From the sequence record MZ234025.1: a DNA stretch of 64,000 nt; one strand, 5' to 3'. The notes under the pieces were generated by a model. That model was not told where the DNA came from. It searched no databases and saw nothing but the letters and a program-made list of their open reading frames with translations. Positions 4,328 through 52,164 of this stretch are shown here, in pieces (position 1 is the stretch's first letter; the number at the start of each line of letters is the position of its first letter). Source of the DNA: Escherichia phage vB_EcoM-172859UKE1. The position numbers and the translations under genes were made by a program.

Positions 4328-4996
4328 ATGATCGATAAAGACTATATTGAAGAGTTACGTGCTCTTTCTGATAAAAAGGAAGCCAAAGCTAAACTGTTTG
4401 AATATGCGGAACAATTTGGCATTAGTGTTAAGAAAACAAAATCATTCGATAATATTGTTATTGATATCGAAGAAGCTCTTAACGCACTGGCTGATGAACC
4501 ATTACCTGAAACTGATGGATTATCTATCACTGATTTAATTACTGCCGCAGACGATGTGGACGGTGTTAATTTCACCAACGAAGAAGTTAAAGAAGAAGCT
4601 ATTCTGTTGTTTGATTCTCCAACAGAACAAGTTGAAGTATTAGAAGTTGTCGAACAAGAAAAAGAATTCGACCATGATAAATTCGAAGAAGCAATTACTC
4701 AGGTTGTTGAATCTGAAAAAGAGCCTGAGTCAGAGGTAAATAAAGAAGTAAAATTTGTTCTGCCTGAAAATTTTAGTCCTACGCTCATTAAATTAGGCAA
4801 AGGCCTAGGATATGTTACTGTTCCTTGGTGGATTTATCAATGGATAGCCGAAACCCCAGATTGGAAATCTCGCCCAACTAGTTTTGTGCATGCTTCTGCT
4901 CACCAAACATTATTTAGCTTAATTTATTATATTAATCGCGATGGATCAGTTCTAATTCGTGAAACTCGTAATTCTTCTTTCGTAACATTAAAATAA
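4328..4996 (+). CDS. inh: Inh, inhibitor of prohead protease gp21
   Basis: 222 aa, acidic N-terminal half; size and position (between uvsW and hoc) match T4 Inh. Confidence 0.75.
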   Translation: MIDKDYIEELRALSDKKEAKAKLFEYAEQFGISVKKTKSFDNIVIDIEEALNALADEPLPETDGLSITDLITAADDVDGVNFTNEEVKEEAILLFDSPTEQVEVLEVVEQEKEFDHDKFEEAITQVVESEKEPESEVNKEVKFVLPENFSPTLIKLGKGLGYVTVPWWIYQWIAETPDWKSRPTSFVHASAHQTLFSLIYYINRDGSVLIRETRNSSFVTLK

Positions 4997-5005
4997 GGAT
5001 AACTT

Positions 5006-5785
5006 ATGGCTTTTACAGTTGATATAACTCCTAAAACACCTACTGGAGTTATAGATCAGACTCAGCAGTTTACTGCTACACCCAGTGGTCAAACTGGAGA
5101 TGGACCTATTACATATGCTTGGACTGTAGATGATGTTCCACAAGATGGAGCTGAAGCAACTTTTAGTTATGTACTAAAAGGACCTGCCGGTCAAAAGACT
5201 ATTAAAGTAGTTGCAACAAACCCAGTCCTAGACGCTGAAGCTGAAACAGCAGAAGCTACTACAACTATCACAGTTCAAAATAAGACACAAACGACCACCT
5301 TAGCTGTAACTCCTAATAGCCCTGACGCTGGAGTAATTGGAACAGCTATTGAATTTACTGCTACTTTAGCTTCGCAGCCATCGGGCGCAAACGCTACTTA
5401 TCAATGGTATGTAGATGATTCTCCTGTGGGCGAAGCAACTAACGCTACGTTCAATTACACTCCTGCCGAAAGCGGGGTAAAAAGAATTAAGTGTGTGGCT
5501 CAAGTAACTGCGACAGATTATGATGCACTAAGCGTTACTTCTAATGAAGTATCACTGACTGTTAATAAAAAGACACAGACAACTACTTTGGCAGTAACTC
5601 CCGATAGTCCTTCAGCTGGAGTAATTGGAACCCCAGTTCAATTTACTGCTGCCTTAGCTTCTCAACCAGTTGGAGCGTCTGCTACGTATCAGTGGTATGT
5701 AGATGATTCACAAGTTGGTGGAGAAACTAACTCTACATTTAGCTATACTCCAACTACAAGTGGAGTTAAAAAATTAAATGCGTAG
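5006..5785 (+). CDS. hoc: Hoc outer capsid protein, N-terminal part (Ig-like domains 1-3), ended by a frameshift
   Basis: Tandem Ig-like repeats (TQTTTLAVTP...YQWYVDD...); frame ends at TAG 5783-5785 after an A6 run; continues in another frame (see 5863..6423). Confidence 0.8.
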   Translation: MAFTVDITPKTPTGVIDQTQQFTATPSGQTGDGPITYAWTVDDVPQDGAEATFSYVLKGPAGQKTIKVVATNPVLDAEAETAEATTTITVQNKTQTTTLAVTPNSPDAGVIGTAIEFTATLASQPSGANATYQWYVDDSPVGEATNATFNYTPAESGVKRIKCVAQVTATDYDALSVTSNEVSLTVNKKTQTTTLAVTPDSPSAGVIGTPVQFTAALASQPVGASATYQWYVDDSQVGGETNSTFSYTPTTSGVKKLNA

Positions 5786-43754: not shown

Positions 43755-43829
43755 GGCCCTGTAGCTCAATGGGAGAGCTGTCAGCTCATAACTGATAGGT
43801 AGCTGGATCGAAACCAGCCAGGGTCACCA
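43755..43829 (+). tRNA. tRNA-Met (anticodon CAT; could be initiator, elongator or lysidine-modified Ile2)
   Basis: Hand-folded cloverleaf: 7-bp acceptor stem, D arm GCTC/GAGC, anticodon loop CTCATAA, T arm GCTGG/CCAGC, encoded CCA; T-loop ATCGAAA is atypical. Confidence 0.75.
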
Positions 43830-43832
43830 ATC

Positions 43833-43909
<77 letters not shown>

Positions 43910-45244: not shown

Positions 45245-45748
45245 ATGAGTCTTTACACTGAACTGAATAAAAAATCTGAAGAATCTGCTGAAACTATTTT
45301 TAAAAACGTGCAAAAGCGTATTTTGGAAAAGATGTATGATGCAGCATCTAAAGGTGAAAAATCTTGCCGGTTTCCGATGAGGTGTTCTTCTGATTTATGC
45401 GCAAATACTATTGAATGGCTGGAAAGTGAAGGTCTTACGGTAGAGAAAAACCCGGCGACTTCTATTGACGGCGAATCATATATTAGTATTTCTTGGGATA
45501 AATCAAGGGTAGAAGAGAAAGATGGTGATTGGGTTGTAGATGTTAAAACTTCTGATGGTGGACGTTCTGTTGAAGTTTCGGCTGTAGTTAAAGGTACCCA
45601 CGAACAAAGGACTTGGGGTTGGGGTGGTGAAGAAAAAGAAATTGTTCTTAGTGTGATTGCCAGGTCAACTAGTAATAAAATTGCACAAAGCATCATTGAC
45701 GCTGCAATTGCTGAAGCAGAAAAAATTTGCAAAATTAAAAATAAATGA
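45245..45748 (+). CDS. Hypothetical protein (167 aa)
   Basis: ORF following promoter and GAGGAA SD. Confidence 0.55.
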   Translation: MSLYTELNKKSEESAETIFKNVQKRILEKMYDAASKGEKSCRFPMRCSSDLCANTIEWLESEGLTVEKNPATSIDGESYISISWDKSRVEEKDGDWVVDVKTSDGGRSVEVSAVVKGTHEQRTWGWGGEEKEIVLSVIARSTSNKIAQSIIDAAIAEAEKICKIKNK

Positions 45749-46918: not shown

Positions 46919-46940
46919 GGAGGACTCCGGTCCTCCTTTT
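46919..46940 (+). terminator. Rho-independent terminator
   Basis: GGAGGAC-tccg-GTCCTCC hairpin followed by TTTT. Confidence 0.7.
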
Positions 46941-46959
46941 GGATAATAAAGGAGTTAAC

Positions 46960-47562
46960 ATGCGAAACCAAAATAATGATATTGACTCAATGTTCGAAGA
47001 GTTCCGAGATAAGGTAAATCCACCTACGTCTTTAGTTGATTCATTACGATATGTTGCAACCGGACGTAAATGGTACTGGTCGTCTTCTTATGAGACTACT
47101 GAGAAAACGGCTAGCCATAGCAGAAAATCTTTATTAGCCCCAGGTATTATGATTCATGATATCGGAGCTATTGCTAAACTAGTTGCAGACCATGATATTA
47201 GATTCACTGATTTCGTTGCTCCTACATGGTCTGTTTGTTGTTTAAACACTGAATTGGAATATATCAGCGAACGCTCTGAAGATTATTATGGTTTTAGAGA
47301 TAAGCTTCTGAGGTCTAATATGTTTTATATCGATACAGAAGTTCTAGTCGATAATAAAAAATATTACTTTACGTTAATCATCGATTCTGAAACTATGTAT
47401 GAAGGCAAGCCTTTGCTTAAAAGAGTTGATGCTTTAAGTGCTATTGATGCGCTTTATGAAACTATGGTTGTTAGTCCTAATTTCACTAACAATTTAATCC
47501 TTGAGCAATTTATTATGGAATGTAGAGAATATGTCAAAGCCAACCCTGTACATGCCAATTAA
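46960..47562 (+). CDS. Hypothetical protein (200 aa)
   Basis: ATG 46960 after AAAGGAG SD. Confidence 0.55.
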   Translation: MRNQNNDIDSMFEEFRDKVNPPTSLVDSLRYVATGRKWYWSSSYETTEKTASHSRKSLLAPGIMIHDIGAIAKLVADHDIRFTDFVAPTWSVCCLNTELEYISERSEDYYGFRDKLLRSNMFYIDTEVLVDNKKYYFTLIIDSETMYEGKPLLKRVDALSAIDALYETMVVSPNFTNNLILEQFIMECREYVKANPVHAN

Positions 47563-47926
47563 GCCCTGGGCGTATGAATACAAGCGTAAATTAATCCCAA
47601 ACGAAGTACTATTTGGCCCTATTTTAGCTTTAGCATTTTTAATCTTTATGATTGTAGGAGCTGTTTTAGATTCTAGTGAAGTTATATCGTCTGATGCAGT
47701 GTTTTTACTTATTATAGCCGGGTCGTTTATTGTGCCATTTTTATTAATGCCTATTAACTGGGTGGGATATTGGTACCAAGGCCGTCATCACAGAGCTCGA
47801 GTTCGTGAATGGAAAGTTCAGTGCGCAAAAGCCAAAGCTCAGTATGATGAAGCTGTTAAAAAGTATGAATATGAAGAAGCTATGGAATTCGTTAAGGAAA
47901 TAAGATGCAAAAGCCTCAACTCTTAA
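47531..47926 (+). CDS. Membrane protein (two TM helices, basic C-terminal helix); start uncertain (47531 or 47552)
   Basis: Hydrophobic segments LFGPILALAFLIFMIVGAVL and AVFLLIIAGSFIVPFLLMPI; overlaps upstream ORF. Confidence 0.5.
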   Translation: MSKPTLYMPIKPWAYEYKRKLIPNEVLFGPILALAFLIFMIVGAVLDSSEVISSDAVFLLIIAGSFIVPFLLMPINWVGYWYQGRHHRARVREWKVQCAKAKAQYDEAVKKYEYEEAMEFVKEIRCKSLNS

Positions 47927-48264
47927 CCGTATGGCCTTCTCTTGGTGAGAACATTCTAATTTTTATTATGAGTATTGGCATGGGATTTGCCTTTGGATTA
48001 GTTGGATTTCTTATTGACGGCGTTGTGTTAGGATTTATAGGGAACACTGGTGGATTCACAGACCAATGGCAGGACTTACGATATACTCAAGCCTTTGCAT
48101 CAATCGCATCCTTTTGTACAGTAGTCTATTTTTACTACGATTTTATAAACCATAACAAGAAAAATAAAAAGGTTTACGCTTCTCAAATGATTAGTTATAA
48201 TGAACTCCTAGCTAGACGTGAAAATGAAACAATCGAAAACTTTATTAAGGAATGTAGAAAATGA
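47905..48264 (+). CDS. Membrane protein, member of the C-terminal ENFIKECR family
   Basis: 119 aa; TM segment plus C-terminal ...ETIENFIKECRK, shared with ORFs at 50680 and 51673. Confidence 0.55.
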   Translation: MQKPQLLTVWPSLGENILIFIMSIGMGFAFGLVGFLIDGVVLGFIGNTGGFTDQWQDLRYTQAFASIASFCTVVYFYYDFINHNKKNKKVYASQMISYNELLARRENETIENFIKECRK

Positions 48265-48566
48265 GTAAGATTATTGAAATTAAAGTACCAGAGTTTAATG
48301 ATGCCAAATCCGCTTCAGATGCAATTTATAAACTTCTGAATCAAGCTGAACGTATCGAAGAAGAAGCAACAAAGATCGCAGACCAATATGCCGTATCATT
48401 TTCTGTAGGTGATTATGGTAGCGGTCGTACTTATTATCCTAAGGGTGAAATCGTATCCCAGTGGATGAAAGATGAAATTGAAAATAATGGTGGCGATGTT
48501 AAGCGTGAAGGTAATGGTTACGTTATTACTGAAGGTGCTTGGGTTTCGTCTTCTGCGTTGTGCTAA
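48261..48566 (+). CDS. Hypothetical protein, paralog family member 1 (C-terminal GWVSSS..C)
   Basis: 101 aa ending GAWVSSSALC. Confidence 0.55.
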   Translation: MSKIIEIKVPEFNDAKSASDAIYKLLNQAERIEEEATKIADQYAVSFSVGDYGSGRTYYPKGEIVSQWMKDEIENNGGDVKREGNGYVITEGAWVSSSALC

Positions 48567-48575
48567 GGAATCATT

Positions 48576-48848
48576 ATGTCTAAAGAACAAACCGAACTGG
48601 CTGAAGCTGTAGCAAAAATCTATGCAGCTATTGAGGCTGCCAAAGAAATTGCTGATAAACAAAACACAACATTCGACTTGTATCCAGCTTATGGTATGGG
48701 TGGAACCTATCATTCACCCGGACATCTTAAAGCCGATCTTGAACGTTGTACAAAAAACGGTTATGCTGAATGGGCTGATGTTTATCAATACGACTACAAC
48801 CTGAGCCTTGAAGATGGTGGTTGGGTTGCATCTTCACACACTTGCTAA
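48576..48848 (+). CDS. Hypothetical protein, paralog family member 2
   Basis: 90 aa ending GGWVASSHTC; SD AAGGAA. Confidence 0.55.
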   Translation: MSKEQTELAEAVAKIYAAIEAAKEIADKQNTTFDLYPAYGMGGTYHSPGHLKADLERCTKNGYAEWADVYQYDYNLSLEDGGWVASSHTC

Positions 48849-48857
48849 GGAAACCAT

Positions 48858-49055
48858 ATGTCTCGTGAATTAGATTGTGCTGTACGTACCGCGGTAGCTG
48901 CTCTAGAAAACCTGTTCCAAATTGCAACAGAAGAACGCGAAGAAGTTACATTATGGATTGAAGATAACGCAGGTCTGAATCTCCAGGACGCGATCTCATT
49001 ATCTAATAATAGCATTACTGTTCAAGGCTGGGTATCGTCTAGTTATTCTTGCTAA
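48858..49055 (+). CDS. Hypothetical protein, paralog family member 3
   Basis: 65 aa ending QGWVSSSYSC; SD AAGGAAA. Confidence 0.55.
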   Translation: MSRELDCAVRTAVAALENLFQIATEEREEVTLWIEDNAGLNLQDAISLSNNSITVQGWVSSSYSC

Positions 49056-49059
49056 AACA

Positions 49060-49089
49060 GTTTACAATAAGATAGGACTATGTTATAGT
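49060..49089 (+). promoter_or_regulatory. Early promoter within palindromic cassette
   Basis: GTTTAC at 49060-49065, TGtTATAGT -10; exact 28-bp palindrome copy at 49071-49098. Confidence 0.6.
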
Positions 49090-49117
49090 AGTCCTATCAA
49101 ATTAAATGGAGTCCGCA

Positions 49118-49357
49118 ATGATTTATTACGAAAGTATCGGAACCAAAGTGATTGGTAAAACCATTACTCGTGAAAAGTTTGCAAAGATATTCGATATGCG
49201 TTATAAAAAATCTGAACACAAAGGCATCCGATTCGAAGATGCGCACTGTACAATTTGCCCTTATAATGAAGACATAAATGGTACAATCGTTCCATTGGTA
49301 GAGGCTTCACATGATGACCTCTGGGATGAATATAATATCGCATGTCGTGAAATTTAA
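49118..49357 (+). CDS. Hypothetical protein (79 aa)
   Basis: ATG 49118 after GGAG; the ATG at 49106 lies within the conserved AAATGGAG cassette. Confidence 0.5.
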   Translation: MIYYESIGTKVIGKTITREKFAKIFDMRYKKSEHKGIRFEDAHCTICPYNEDINGTIVPLVEASHDDLWDEYNIACREI

Positions 49358-49385
49358 GTTAATGAATTAATCCGAGGAAAATATT

Positions 49386-50342
49386 ATGATGTTAGTTATT
49401 GGTTCTCGTGCACTTCACTATCATGGTCTTATTGATTCTAGCGCTATCAAAAATAGTGATTGGGACTTTATTGCGGACCAAGGTTCTTGGAATGCATTCA
49501 AAAATCAAATGATGGGTGTATATGTTCACCAAGATAACCCTGATGTCCAAGTTTTCAAATGCTTCCATAATGGACGCGAAACTCATTTTGAAGCATATAT
49601 TGTTCCGGCGATCACTAATGTCCGTGAATTAGTCGGTGAACTCACTCCTGAAGATTTCACGTCTTCTTATGACCTTTTAAAATACGCCAAGAAAAATTTG
49701 ACTAAAGACCGTTTGACCGGGTTTTACTGGGCAACTCCTGAGATATGTCTTGCAATTAAAATGTCTCATCGTTTCAAGAAAAATAATCCATTCTTTTTAA
49801 AGACTATGAACCATATTCAGTATCTTCGCGGTAAAGGTGTTACACTGAACGATGAACTTACTGAAATTATGCTGAAACGCCAGAAAGAAACTTTGAACTA
49901 TGCTCACCCGGTTCTTGACACTTCTAAAAGTGCGTTCTTTAAAGATGACATCTATACATATGACCATGATACTATTCATGAAGCCATTGCACTAACTGAC
50001 CAGCCTGCTTATAAGTTTTATATGAAAGAAGGCTCAGAAGTTATGACATCACGCGAGAAGTTCGAATCATTACCAGAAATGGTTAAATTAGCCGGTGTAT
50101 ATGAAGAAGCTTGTGTATTAGCTCTTGAACGTTCACAGATTCCTAACGACTTTAAAATCCATCCGAGTGATAGTTTTATGATGGCCCTTGAAAAGGTCTG
50201 TACATCAATCACATCAGGATGGTTCCGTGAGTTCGCTTGGGAAAATTATAGCAAAGTAGTAAGTATGTACCAAAGCTTAGGACATGACGATTACGTCAAG
50301 CGTTTCAAACAAAACTTTCATATGGTAAAACCTTTCAAATAA
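49386..50342 (+). CDS. Hypothetical protein (318 aa) with a weak nucleotidyltransferase-like GS...DxD N-terminal motif
   Basis: IGSRALHYHGL...NSDWDF near N-terminus; longest ORF of the accessory region. Confidence 0.6.
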   Translation: MMLVIGSRALHYHGLIDSSAIKNSDWDFIADQGSWNAFKNQMMGVYVHQDNPDVQVFKCFHNGRETHFEAYIVPAITNVRELVGELTPEDFTSSYDLLKYAKKNLTKDRLTGFYWATPEICLAIKMSHRFKKNNPFFLKTMNHIQYLRGKGVTLNDELTEIMLKRQKETLNYAHPVLDTSKSAFFKDDIYTYDHDTIHEAIALTDQPAYKFYMKEGSEVMTSREKFESLPEMVKLAGVYEEACVLALERSQIPNDFKIHPSDSFMMALEKVCTSITSGWFREFAWENYSKVVSMYQSLGHDDYVKRFKQNFHMVKPFK

Positions 50343-50354
50343 TTTCACAAAACA

Positions 50355-50384
50355 GTTTACAAGGTCTGTAGTTGTTGATACTAT
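50355..50384 (+). promoter_or_regulatory. Early promoter with inverted repeat
   Basis: GTTTAC at 50355-50360, 18-nt spacer, TACTAT at 50379-50384; arms AGGTCTGTAG/CTATAGACCT. Confidence 0.6.
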
Positions 50385-50422
50385 AGACCTATCAAAACAA
50401 ATGAGTGAATGGAGATATAAAA

Positions 50423-50623
50423 ATGACTACTTTGAATAAACGTTTCGGTAAAGCTAAACCTGGTTGTGCAGCAGAACGTCGTTATGTTTTCGCTCAGTTA
50501 GAAGATGTAGAGTATCAGATTAATCAAGTTCACATTACTGGTATCGAGCCTATGTGTGGCCTTGAAGCTCTTCGTGAAGTTCGTGATGGGTATCGTCGTG
50601 ACATCGAAGAAATGTCAAAATAA
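50423..50623 (+). CDS. Hypothetical small protein (66 aa)
   Basis: ATG 50423 after GGAG within the conserved RBS cassette. Confidence 0.5.
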   Translation: MTTLNKRFGKAKPGCAAERRYVFAQLEDVEYQINQVHITGIEPMCGLEALREVRDGYRRDIEEMSK

Positions 50624-50624
50624 G

Positions 50625-50653
50625 TGTACAAACTGATAGGGCTATGTTATAGT
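50625..50653 (+). promoter_or_regulatory. Early promoter within palindromic cassette
   Basis: GTGTAC -35, TATAGT -10; 28-bp palindrome with one mismatch at 50635-50662. Confidence 0.55.
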
Positions 50654-50679
50654 AGTCCTATCAACTTGAGGAGAATATT

Positions 50680-50985
50680 ATGAAATTAACAGAAACCAAC
50701 CGAATCGGTCTTTTTACAATATTTGCATCGCTTTTTTACGCAGCTCTTTCTGTTGCAGTATTACAAAAGGCTTACGATATGGATGGTGTTCCTGGTTGTA
50801 TATTTTTATCACCGTTTTTATTATTCGTCGGAGCTTTGATATTATATGCCACGTCCGGTTTAGACCATAATGTCTGGGTCAATTATAAACGTAAATTGTC
50901 CGAAGAAGAACACGCAGAAGCTCGTAAAAAAGCTATTGAATCTACCAATCTAGAAAATTTCATTAAAGAATGTCGAGGAAAATAA
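50680..50985 (+). CDS. Membrane protein, ENFIKECR family
   Basis: 101 aa; two hydrophobic segments; C-terminus ...STNLENFIKECRGK. Confidence 0.55.
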   Translation: MKLTETNRIGLFTIFASLFYAALSVAVLQKAYDMDGVPGCIFLSPFLLFVGALILYATSGLDHNVWVNYKRKLSEEEHAEARKKAIESTNLENFIKECRGK

Positions 50986-50986
50986 T

Positions 50987-51673
50987 ATGAATAGTTCTAA
51001 AGTGTTTAATAGTCAAGCTCGTGCAGTAGGTGGTTTTGCCGGCGGTATTTCTAATGATAAAATCAAGAACGAGCCTATGTTCTTCAACTGTAGTTTAGAA
51101 TTTGCTTATAATAACGGCGGTCCTATTACTCGCTCTTTCATTATGAACTTGCCGGATGATTGGAACACCGACCAGGTTGTATTTGATTCACGAGTCCACA
51201 TGCTGATGCCTGGTTGGTATCCTGCAATCCCAGGCTATCACCATGATGACGTACCACGCCCAGATATTCCAGTTGGTCAACACTTTATTACTGCAGGACA
51301 ACCTGACTATGACAACCCTCGTTACCATTCTGAACATATTCTTGGTCTTGTTAACGCTGATGTGTGTCCTACTCATTTTGCAACAGGAACTGCGGAGTTC
51401 AGTCAGATTCCTTATGGCGAACTTATCTATCGCCAGTGGCACAAAGAAGTCCTCGAAAAAATTGAAAAAGGTGAACTAGAGAAATGGGAAGCTCCAGATC
51501 GTACTCTTCTTCAGTTTGATTGGCAAACATGGCACACTGGTTCTCGTGCAATTAGTAACGGATGGCGTTGGTTCGGACGTGTATCTCGTAATACAGACCG
51601 AGTTAAAAAGATTACCAATGAAATTCGTGTCAATGCTCAAGTTTATCTGGAATTCCCTATGGAAGGCTGGTAA
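50987..51673 (+). CDS. Hypothetical protein (228 aa)
   Basis: ORF after GGAAAA SD, Trp/His-rich. Confidence 0.55.
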   Translation: MNSSKVFNSQARAVGGFAGGISNDKIKNEPMFFNCSLEFAYNNGGPITRSFIMNLPDDWNTDQVVFDSRVHMLMPGWYPAIPGYHHDDVPRPDIPVGQHFITAGQPDYDNPRYHSEHILGLVNADVCPTHFATGTAEFSQIPYGELIYRQWHKEVLEKIEKGELEKWEAPDRTLLQFDWQTWHTGSRAISNGWRWFGRVSRNTDRVKKITNEIRVNAQVYLEFPMEGW

Positions 51674-52164
51674 TGATACATAAAATTCACTGGGCAAACA
51701 TGGACGATGACGACGAAGGTACTTCATATTATTCTATAGATTGGACAGGATGTCCATCCTACTTAGTGAAACGTCATTGTCAAGCATTTAAAATCGACCA
51801 GCCAGCAGGTATTATTGTGAACAGATACATTAACGGATATCAACCTATCGATGAAGTAATACGAACAACTCAAGCTGAGCTTGAAAAGTTTTTCAATAAG
51901 TGCCAATGGATAACAGGATGGATTATATTTGTACCGTCAGTGTGGTTTTTTAGTACTAAGGTGAGTTCTTTCGGTTTTGTTGATATTATTGCTATCTTAT
52001 TAGCATCTAGTATCATAAGTGTTGTTGGTGGCATCATTGGCGGCGGTACCGCCGCCATCATTATTAATCTTATTAAAAGTAGTTTACAAGAACATAAAGA
52101 CAAGATAAAAGCCAAGAATAATGAAGTTGAACGTTTTATTACCGAATGCAGGAATTTGAGATGA
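51673..52164 (+). CDS. Membrane protein, ENFIKECR family
   Basis: 163 aa; C-terminal TM region and ...NNEVERFITECRNLR. Confidence 0.55.
   Translation: MIHKIHWANMDDDDEGTSYYSIDWTGCPSYLVKRHCQAFKIDQPAGIIVNRYINGYQPIDEVIRTTQAELEKFFNKCQWITGWIIFVPSVWFFSTKVSSFGFVDIIAILLASSIISVVGGIIGGGTAAIIINLIKSSLQEHKDKIKAKNNEVERFITECRNLR

What the first reader, a model, noticed from the sequence alone, without database searches (positions are those of the whole stretch)
48261..49055. Tandem triplet of small paralogous genes with a conserved C-terminal GWV(S/A)SS..C motif
Three consecutive ORFs of 101, 90 and 65 aa end GAWVSSSALC, GGWVASSHTC and QGWVSSSYSC, each with a helical N-terminus, while the middle regions diverge. 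Tandem diversifying paralogues with a conserved terminal Cys motif suggest a rapidly evolving family, for example decoys or inhibitors with a shared anchoring or binding tail.
Basis: seen in the sequence. Interest (0 to 1): 0.55.

Follow-up and report, generated by a model that had tools for sequence, protein, structure and literature searches.

The report
Cys-tailed small proteins partnering phage nucleotidyltransferase
Three neighbouring small genes of an RB69-like phage are real, old paralogues of a large phage-only family ending in Trp-x-Ser-Ser-Ser-x-x-Cys, and this family almost always sits just upstream of one uncharacterised nucleotidyltransferase gene, pointing to an undescribed two-part phage module.

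Summary
ORFs at 48261-48566, 48576-48848 and 48858-49055 (+) are paralogues ending GAWVSSSALC, GGWVASSHTC and QGWVSSSYSC. The window is a Mosigvirus (RB69-like T-even phage). The genes are intact in relatives and under purifying selection (dN/dS about 0-0.14), so they are not rapidly evolving. They are ancient paralogues of a phage-only family: 575 clusters at 50% identity, acidic, about 65-110 aa, and 140 of 150 representatives end exactly in Cys. There is no Pfam model, no known fold and no literature.

Best reading: the small proteins are dedicated clients of this enzyme, either substrates or adaptors, and the tail is the docking or acceptor site. The linkage is shown. The mechanism is inferred.

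The parts
48261..48566 (+). ORF1, 101 aa. Family member of the 'DYGSGRTYYP' type and homologue of RB69ORF139c. The tail W94-C101 is encoded at 48540-48563.
   Evidence: AlphaFold pLDDT 89.1, with helix 15-43 plus a small beta-sheet. dN/dS is 0-0.27.
48576..48848 (+). ORF2, 90 aa. Family member of the 'AYGMGGTYH' type. The tail W83-C90 is encoded at 48822-48845.
   Evidence: dN/dS is 0.04-0.14. A replaced allele occurs in LF82-8, and a different family member occupies this slot in PECP20.
48858..49055 (+). ORF3, 65 aa. A shortened family member that keeps the N-terminal helix and the tail but lacks the YGxGxTYY block. It belongs to phrog_4882. The tail W58-C65 is encoded at 49029-49052.
   Evidence: dN/dS is 0-0.08. 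Phage phi25-307 carries a natural W-to-stop change in the tail.
49386..50342 (+). A 318-aa DUF7277+DUF7275 protein. It is a predicted pol-beta-superfamily nucleotidyltransferase of the MenT/AbiEii fold type and the conserved partner gene of the small-protein array.
49106..49357 (+). An 83-aa ORF (phrog_3723) between the array and the enzyme gene. Whether it belongs to the module is uncertain.
   Evidence: It is conserved in Mosigvirus, Dhakavirus and some other T4-like loci. hhalign against the short-tail class gives a probability of only 8.5%, so it is not a demonstrable family member.
49071..49098 (+). An 11-bp stem-loop in the ORF3-to-83-aa intergenic region. It overlaps a promoter-like site at 49061-49089 (TTTACA-17-TATAGT).
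   Evidence: -16.6 kcal/mol, z -4.3. There is no T-run after the stem. Its role was not tested.
48173..48201 (+). A sigma-70/T4-early-like promoter match (TTTACG-17-TATAAT) 60 nt upstream of ORF1, inside the e.3-like gene.
   Evidence: This is a consensus match only.

Best explanation
The three ORFs are real, expressed-type genes for small acidic cytoplasmic proteins. They belong to an old, phage-restricted family built from four elements: a long N-terminal helix, a Gly-rich YGxGxTYY loop, a variable linker, and an almost invariant C-terminal end W-x-[S/A/P]-S-S-x-x-Cys-COOH.

The family forms a conserved two-component module with the gene downstream, a nucleotidyltransferase of the MenT/AbiEii fold (DUF7277-DUF7275). 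The most likely mechanism is that the small proteins are dedicated clients of this enzyme. The shared tail would dock in the enzyme's active-site cleft and present its Ser hydroxyls and/or terminal Cys thiol for nucleotidylation, or for a follow-up reaction. The divergent bodies and linkers would give each paralogue a different downstream target. The module sits in an early, host-takeover or counter-defence type region of the genome.

Shown: paralogy, purifying selection, family size, tail invariance, the gene linkage and its polarity, and the fold class and catalytic-motif conservation of the enzyme.

Inferred: physical interaction, the tail as the interaction or acceptor site, the chemistry, and the biological role.
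For: (1) Linkage from the small-protein side. All 24 loci with enough flank that were in hand carry the enzyme gene downstream on the same strand: 18 of the 19 IMG/VR loci retrieved via the small protein, plus 6 loci from annotated phage records. The nineteenth IMG/VR locus, L008, ends inside the array. In a second retrieval, 36 of 37 loci carry it within about 1.5 kb, and the single exception ends 594 nt after the small gene.

(2) Linkage from the enzyme side. 75 of 80 loci retrieved only by enzyme homology carry 1-6 tail-bearing small ORFs: 206 upstream, 1 downstream, all on the same strand, with a median gap of 352 nt. The tail occurs in 0 of 4,268 opposite-strand ORFs.

(3) The linkage survives across unrelated phage groups and different genomic positions. 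These include Mosigvirus, Dhakavirus, Karamvirus, Tulanevirus (next to nrdD), Lazarusvirus, Phapecoctavirus, Otagovirus, Ralstonia RSP15, Menderavirus (where the order is inverted) and the jumbo Mimasvirus XbC2. All-against-all clustering of 118 loci finds only the enzyme and the small family shared across lineages.

(4) Asymmetry. The small genes were never found without the enzyme, but the enzyme sometimes occurs without them (5 of 80). This is what is expected if the small proteins depend on the enzyme.

(5) The copy number of 1-6 per single enzyme gene, with the same tail on different bodies, fits several clients of one enzyme better than one inhibitor.

(6) The invariant tail residues are chemically reactive and position-fixed. 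The last residue is Cys in 140 of 150 representatives, Ser at -5 in 143, Ser at -4 in 138 and Trp at -8 in 141. In 93 of 150 the terminal Cys is the only Cys.

(7) The enzyme keeps the pol-beta motifs GS...DxD...E and further invariant K, H, D and C residues across 34 homologues down to 46% identity. Its closest structures are enzymes that nucleotidylate hydroxyl groups: tRNA 3'-OH for MenT1/3/4, and antibiotic OH groups for ANT(2'') and LnuA.

(8) The genes are real. They are intact and under purifying selection in relatives, and the family comprises 575 clusters at 50% identity.
Against: No interaction or modification was tested, and a complex prediction was not possible with the tools.

AlphaFold places the tail partly inside the fold: strand 93-96 followed by helical turn 97-100, with pLDDT about 84 over residues 91-100 and 58 for the last residue. 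Trp may therefore be structural rather than a docking residue.

In the window, an 83-aa gene, a strong hairpin and a promoter-like site separate the array from the enzyme gene. They may not share a transcript.

No fusion protein joining the two families was found.

Many of the loci are related T4-like phages, so the counts overstate the number of independent observations.

The short enzyme homologues of actinophages and KVP40 lack this small family.

Serine or cysteine nucleotidylation by a MenT-type enzyme has no precedent known to me.
Confidence: 0.45

Rival explanations
1. Toxin-antitoxin-like arrangement. The nucleotidyltransferase is a MenT-like tRNA-modifying enzyme used by the phage, for example for host translation shut-off or tRNA-end remodelling. 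The upstream small acidic proteins are its inhibitors or regulators, as the short antitoxin MenA1 is for MenT1. Extra paralogues could neutralise host AbiE/MenT-type defence toxins.
Against: One enzyme gene is paired with 1-6 partner genes. The enzyme occurs without partners in 5 of 80 loci, but partners never occur without the enzyme, which is the opposite of what a toxin needing its antidote predicts. A profile search of PDB sequences gives no similarity to MenA1 or any other solved chain. The enzyme does not reach the Pfam AbiEii model, and only DUF7275/DUF7277 match. An invariant terminal Cys and a Ser pair are not needed for simple steric inhibition.
Confidence: 0.22
2. Independent effectors. 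The small proteins act on host targets on their own, as acidic inhibitors or decoys, or as oligomers whose terminal Cys binds a metal or forms a disulfide. They sit beside the enzyme gene only because both belong to the same mobile early-gene cassette.
For: The conserved scaffold with a hypervariable linker (6-61 aa) and the acidic charge fit a family of binders. A promoter-like site and a hairpin separate the array from the enzyme gene in this window. The short-tail subclass carries a second, internal W..SSC motif, so the motif need not be terminal.
Against: Linkage with fixed polarity persists across very different phage groups and across relocations within genomes. No other gene is shared between those loci. 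Chance co-location within about 1.5 kb in genomes of 100-370 kb would be about 1-3% per independent lineage.
Confidence: 0.18
3. The tail similarity is an artefact: non-coding DNA repeats that happen to translate alike, so the ORFs are not genes.
For: None beyond the short size of the ORFs.
Against: The frames are intact in 7 of 7 relatives for ORF1 and ORF2 and in 6 of 7 for ORF3. dN/dS is far below 1. Ser codons differ between copies. The family comprises 575 clusters at 50% identity in a 1.84-billion-protein library. The AlphaFold model is confident. RBS-like spacing is present.
Confidence: 0.01

Closest known systems
MenAT / AbiE nucleotidyltransferase toxin-antitoxin modules (MenT1-MenA1, MenT3, MenT4; AbiEii-AbiEi)
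   Different: The module is encoded by virulent phages rather than cellular TA loci. It has 1-6 partners instead of one. The partners have no sequence similarity to MenA1 or AbiEi. The enzyme is longer (318 aa, with an extra conserved helical region) and does not match the Pfam AbiEii model. Toxicity and tRNA activity are untested.
HEPN-MNT type VII toxin-antitoxin systems, in which a minimal nucleotidyltransferase poly-AMPylates a residue near the C-terminus of its partner protein (own knowledge)
   Same: The logic is the same as the proposed mechanism: a pol-beta-superfamily enzyme encoded next to a small protein that it modifies near the C-terminus.
   Different: The partner here has no HEPN domain or Rx4-6H motif, and there is no Pfam hit. 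The candidate acceptor would be Ser or Cys rather than Tyr. No modification has been shown.
RiPP precursor arrays with one modifying enzyme, in particular lanthipeptide/AviCys-type C-termini (epidermin ends S-x-x-C-COOH; own knowledge)
   Same: Several precursor-like genes lie upstream of one enzyme gene. Ser at -4 and a terminal Cys at -1 have the same spacing as the AviCys-forming Ser19...Cys22 of epidermin. The enzyme's structural relatives (ANT, Lnu) activate hydroxyl groups.
   Different: The products are predicted folded proteins of 65-110 aa, not leader-core peptides. No LanB/C/M/KC/D-type enzyme was found nearby. The conserved part is the C-terminus, not a leader. The short-tail subclass (W..SSC) has a different spacing.
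PHROG families phrog_899 and phrog_4882 (function unknown)
   Same: ORF1 and ORF2 are members of phrog_899 and ORF3 is a member of phrog_4882.
   Different: PHROGs lists them as two unrelated families with no function. The shared tail, their common ancestry and the enzyme linkage are not recorded there.

Membership tests
phrog_899 / phrog_4882 (uncharacterised phage protein families) | Significant match to the family HMM | tested here: met
   ORF1 1.3e-22 and ORF2 4.8e-19 to phrog_899. ORF3 1.1e-36 to phrog_4882.
W-x-x-S-S-(x-x)-C small-protein family (defined here) | N-terminal helix plus a C-terminal W-x-[SAP]-S-S-x-x-C at the very end of a protein of 65-110 aa | tested here: met
   All three ORFs meet it. 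148 of 150 representatives carry the motif and 140 of 150 end in Cys.
W-x-x-S-S-(x-x)-C small-protein family (defined here) | Central SF..YGxGxTYY loop | tested here: not met
   Present in ORF1 and ORF2 but absent from ORF3. The loop is therefore not required for the ORF3 subtype.
MenAT/AbiE-type nucleotidyltransferase toxin-antitoxin module | Enzyme with the MenT/AbiEii fold and catalytic S/T-x-D-x-D, Lys and Asp residues | tested here: inconclusive
MenAT/AbiE-type nucleotidyltransferase toxin-antitoxin module | Partner protein homologous to a known antitoxin (MenA1, MenA3, AbiEi) | tested here: not met
MenAT/AbiE-type nucleotidyltransferase toxin-antitoxin module | Enzyme toxic to cells and neutralised by the partner | not testable with these tools
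   Needs expression experiments.
HEPN-MNT type VII TA | Partner carries a HEPN domain with an Rx4-6H motif | tested here: not met
   No Pfam or NCBIfam hit for the three ORFs or for 50 family members.
Lanthipeptide/AviCys RiPP precursors | Dedicated dehydratase/cyclase or LanD-type decarboxylase encoded nearby | tested here: not met
   The ORFs scanned next to the array, in the window and in four related loci, give no such Pfam domain. In all-against-all clustering of 118 loci, only the enzyme and the small family are shared across lineages. The remaining clusters were not individually annotated.
Lanthipeptide/AviCys RiPP precursors | Ser/Thr at -4 and Cys as the last residue | tested here: met
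   Ser at -4 in 138 of 150 and Cys at -1 in 140 of 150. This is a resemblance only.
Ubiquitin-like/ThiS-MoaD carriers | Beta-grasp fold with a C-terminal Gly-Gly | tested here: not met
Known phage anti-defence sponges and inhibitors (Tad1/2, Acb2 etc.) and PADLOC defence proteins | Sequence or fold similarity | tested here: not met

The most novel reading that the evidence does not exclude
The module is a protein-level post-translational modification system new to phages. The MenT-fold enzyme would nucleotidylate a tail serine (or the terminal cysteine) of each small protein. The result would be either a stable protein-nucleotide conjugate or, after elimination to dehydroalanine, a C-terminal thioether (lanthionine/AviCys-like) ring with the terminal Cys. 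The array would then be a set of enzymatically 'armed' early effectors with different targets.
Probability: 0.15. Interest if true: 0.85.

Novelty: new variant of a known kind. Interest (0 to 1): 0.62.

Why it matters
The family is large: 575 clusters at 50% identity for the small proteins, and more than 2,100 clusters at 90% identity for the enzyme. It is spread over many virulent phages of Enterobacteria, Aeromonas, Acinetobacter, Pseudomonas, Ralstonia, Stenotrophomonas and Xanthomonas, including therapeutic-type T4-like and rV5-like phages. Despite this it has no Pfam model for the small proteins, no known fold, no annotation and no literature.

The strict gene linkage turns three 'hypothetical proteins' into a concrete and cheap experiment: co-express them with the enzyme and weigh them. 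If the enzyme modifies them, this would be a new use of the MenT/AbiEii fold, with protein rather than tRNA as substrate, and a new class of phage early effectors. If the small proteins inhibit the enzyme, it would be a toxin-antitoxin-like pair carried by lytic phages, relevant to host shut-off and to evasion of AbiE/MenT-type defences.

Tried and rejected
- Pfam, NCBIfam and PADLOC scans of the three ORFs and of 50 family members gave nothing above threshold.
- PDB sequence searches with the small-family profile and with the enzyme profile gave nothing relevant.
- The afdb50 library was unavailable.
- The search for related loci with the broad alignment A3 failed because no stretch was conserved enough. 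Narrower alignments worked.
- A scan of 185,579 bacterial and archaeal species genomes for YGMGGTY[YHF] found no relatives, which is consistent with a phage-only family. Only one pattern was tried.
- Literature searches for RB69ORF139c, ORF134c-139c, DUF7275, MenT plus phage-encoded, and C-terminal cysteine plus nucleotidyltransferase found nothing on this family. RlaP, the phage RNA-ligase-associated NTase, is named in PMC7824862. Its identity with this enzyme was not tested.
- The idea that the 83-aa ORF (49106-49357) is a fourth family member was rejected. An apparent BLAST link was caused by out-of-frame read-through of the conserved tail DNA, and hhalign gives a probability of only 8.5%.
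- A Rosetta-stone fusion of small protein and enzyme was searched for and none was found.
- The 'sulfurtransferase' label in phage JK45 belongs to the e.4-like membrane protein, not to the triplet.
- The 'rapid diversification' reading was rejected on dN/dS.

Full report
**What the window is.** The region 47000-50400 is 96-97% identical to Mosigvirus genomes (RB69-like T-even phages such as Shigella phage SSE1, mobillu and APCEc01). The three ORFs lie in the early, plastic region between the tRNA genes (tRNA-Met 43755-43829 and tRNA-Arg 43833-43909) and nudE/lysozyme e. Relative to T4, the neighbours are homologues of e.6, e.5, e.4 and e.3 upstream, and e.2 (weak match) and nudE downstream. 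The block ORF1-ORF2-ORF3, the 83-aa ORF, the 318-aa ORF and three further ORFs (50405-50623, 50680-50985 and 50987-51673) sits between the e.3 and e.2 homologues. It has no counterpart in T4 at that locus, nor in T4 bases 1-50000.

**Check of the observation.** The ORFs, lengths and C-termini are exactly as reported.
- ORF1's ATG overlaps the stop of the e.3-like gene. ORF2 and ORF3 each follow the previous stop by 9 nt and are preceded by GGAA.
- The tail occurs nowhere else in the six frames of the window. It occurs in 0 of 4,268 opposite-strand ORFs of 80 related loci.
- The three proteins are significantly similar pairwise (E = 7e-5 to 5e-4) and all match one family HMM.
- ORF3 is a shortened form lacking the central SF..YGxGxTYY block.
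- DNA-level repeats are only 21-25 nt long, and Ser codons differ between copies (TCT, TCA, AGT). Conservation is therefore at the protein level and the duplication is old.

**Are they genes, and are they fast-evolving?** Seven close relatives were compared.
- ORF1 and ORF2 are intact in all seven. ORF3 is intact in six; phi25-307 has a W-to-stop change in the tail.
- Nei-Gojobori dN/dS is 0-0.27 for ORF1 (few changes), 0.04-0.14 for ORF2 and 0-0.08 for ORF3. The neighbouring 318-aa gene gives 0.06-0.12. This is purifying selection, not rapid diversification.
- What changes is array content. LF82-8 carries a divergent ORF2 allele, and PECP20 has other family members in the first two slots.
- JS98-like phages carry five members and other lineages carry 1-6.

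**The family.** A profile of 11 sequences finds 575 clusters (50% identity) at E of 1e-3 or better, and 61 at 1e-10 or better, among 1.84 billion representatives. Nearly all are 70-110 aa, and the match runs to the last residue.
- In 150 representatives the last residue is Cys in 140. Trp is at -8 in 141, Ser at -5 in 143 and Ser at -4 in 138. In 93 the terminal Cys is the only Cys.
- The consensus is ...IAD..G..F.F..AYGMGGTYYP...W...G.WVSSS..C.
- The linker between the YG loop and the tail Trp varies from 6 to 61 residues.
- The proteins are acidic: ORF1-3 have pI 4.60, 4.68 and 4.05, and the family median is 4.55.
- A subclass ending W-x-x-S-S-C carries a second, internal DW..SSC-YGE motif. 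It is homologous through the N-terminal helix region (hhalign probability 96%, E = 4e-9).
- There is no Pfam, NCBIfam or PADLOC family, no PDB relative by sequence, and no paper.
- No relative was found in 185,579 cellular species genomes with the one pattern tried.

**The key finding: a fixed partner gene.** In JS98, Karamvirus AS6, Aeromonas phiAS4 (where the genes lie beside nrdD, a different genomic place) and the Xanthomonas jumbo phage XbC2, the small genes are followed by a gene of about 300 aa with Pfam DUF7277+DUF7275. This is the same family as window 49386-50342. The linkage was then measured from both sides.
- From the small-protein side, first set. All 24 loci with enough flank that were in hand have that gene downstream on the same strand: 18 of the 19 IMG/VR loci retrieved through the small protein, plus 6 loci from annotated phage records. 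The nineteenth IMG/VR locus, L008, ends inside the array.
- From the small-protein side, second set. A retrieval with a different query gave 36 of 37. The exception is a contig that ends 594 nt after the small gene.
- From the enzyme side. Of 80 loci retrieved only through the 318-aa protein, 74 carry tail-bearing small ORFs by HMM or strict tail pattern, and a 75th has the variant tail ...NWDSSTC.
- Polarity and spacing. 206 small genes lie upstream and 1 downstream, all on the same strand, with 0-6 copies per locus and a median gap of 352 nt.
- Taxonomic spread. The association also holds in Phapecoctavirus ESCO13, Otagovirus phiPsa397, Ralstonia phage RSP15, Acinetobacter Lazarusvirus and, with inverted order, Stenotrophomonas Yut3.
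- Specificity. Clustering all ORFs of 118 loci shows that only these two families are shared across lineages.
- Caveat. Many loci are related T4-like phages, so the counts are not independent events. The spread over unrelated genera and over different genomic positions is the stronger argument.

**What the partner is.** The 318-aa protein has more than 2,100 homologous clusters. Across 34 homologues down to 46% identity it keeps G6-S7, D25-x-D27, E69, K125, H128, H174, D193-H194-D195, H198, C243, C272 and many more residues. Its AlphaFold model (pLDDT 90.9) is closest to the following structures:

This is the AbiEii/MenT branch of pol-beta nucleotidyltransferases, enzymes that add nucleotides to hydroxyl groups of tRNA 3' ends or of antibiotics. 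MenT1's catalytic residues are T39, D41 (with D43), K137 and D152 (PMC10435456). The phage protein has S24-D25-x-D27 and K125 at similar spacing, but the last Asp could not be assigned. By sequence it matches only DUF7275/DUF7277, not AbiEii, so the similarity is at fold level.

**Interpretation.** The linkage and its polarity are shown. The mechanism is inferred.

I favour a client model at 0.45. The small proteins depend on the enzyme, and the invariant tail is the element the enzyme recognises and probably modifies. The reasons are:
- the many-to-one gene ratio;
- the same tail on divergent bodies;
- the reactive nature and fixed terminal position of the invariant residues;
- the asymmetry that small genes never occur without the enzyme, while the enzyme sometimes occurs alone.

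The main rival, at 0.22, is a toxin-antitoxin-like pair in which the small proteins inhibit a MenT-like tRNA-modifying enzyme. MenA1 is a short antitoxin encoded upstream of MenT1. The acidic charge and the proximity to tRNA and RNA-ligase genes fit this model. The copy number and the asymmetry fit it less well.

A third possibility, at 0.18, is that the small proteins act on host targets independently and merely travel with the enzyme gene.

The most novel reading not excluded, at about 0.15, is serine activation by nucleotidylation followed by a C-terminal thioether. Ser(-4)...Cys(-1)-COOH has the spacing of the AviCys-forming end of epidermin (own knowledge).

**Limits.**
- No complex prediction, no coordinates for surface analysis and no expression data were available.
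- The ORF1 model rests on an alignment of 11 sequences.
- ORFs in related loci were called by a simple rule.
- The strict tail pattern was written after seeing the data, although its background rate is zero.

Noticed in passing
window 47501-47926, 47905-48264, 50680-50985 (also 46939-47562, 51673-52164, 45245-45748): A second paralogous family. These small, mostly membrane proteins (homologues of T4 e.2-e.5) end in a conserved ...(E/N)F(I/V)KECR(G)K motif with a Cys near the C-terminus. In T4-like relatives they flank and interleave the W..SS..C array (tails FIKYCRGKHVS, FISECRGR, FIDDCRRARK and others).
   Followed up: partly
window 49071-49098: A perfect 11-bp stem-loop (GATAGGACTAT...ATAGTCCTATC; -16.6 kcal/mol, z -4.3) between ORF3 and the 83-aa ORF. 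It overlaps a promoter-like TTTACA-17-TATAGT site and has no T-run. Its role is unknown (terminator, processing site or regulator).
   Followed up: partly
L003:4010-4234 (JS98 orf126), L004:3294-3527, L005:3246-3461, L010:6249-6482 and others: A subclass of the family ending in the shorter tail W-x-x-S-S-C. It carries a second, internal copy of the motif (...DW(L/N)NSSCYGE...W.PSSC). No member is found in this window, but the subclass is present in most other T4-like arrays.
   Followed up: yes
L030:4630-4968 and 5011-5322 (Streptomyces phage Annadreamy); L031:4600-4893 and 4890-5360 (Gordonia phage Lozinak); L032:3360-3656 (KVP40): The short DUF7277/DUF7275 homologues of actinophages and KVP40 lack the Cys-tail family. 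Instead they are flanked by tandem small ORFs sharing a different motif (...Y(F)xKTGYYxSWxxxxWDGxxxEVxP). This may be an analogous partner family.
   Followed up: no
L036:2098-2295 (Shigella phage phi25-307): A natural truncation of the ORF3 orthologue. The tail Trp codon is a stop (..VQG*VSSSYSC), so this phage lacks the ORF3 tail.
   Followed up: partly
L035:1501-2031 (Escherichia phage PECP20); L034:1816-2088 (LF82-8): Cassette-like replacement inside an otherwise 97%-identical region. PECP20 has a Dhakavirus-type 97-aa member and a 75-aa ...GFWFSSSMSC member in place of ORF1 and ORF2. LF82-8 has a divergent ORF2 allele (dS 0.42, dN 0.18).
   Followed up: partly
window 48261-51673 versus T4 67652-68319 (L119:7653-8320): Eight ORFs (the three small genes, the 83-aa ORF, the enzyme gene, a 72-aa ORF, the 101-aa membrane ORF 50680-50985 and the 228-aa ORF 50987-51673) lie between the homologues of T4 e.3 and e.2. 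T4 has nothing at that junction.
   Followed up: yes
L028:5006-6028 (RSP15), L030:2064-2723 (Annadreamy), L031:5850-8066 (Lozinak): In distant phages, RNA ligase genes or tRNA gene clusters lie next to or near the enzyme gene. This hints at an RNA-end function for the enzyme. It was not quantified.
   Followed up: no
L001:3532-3927 (JK45 QEG06527.1); protein P0176: Probable annotation errors in public records. The e.4-like membrane protein is labelled 'sulfurtransferase' in JK45-type records. An enzyme homologue is labelled 'prohead assembly scaffold protein' in Klebsiella phage VAC36.
   Followed up: no
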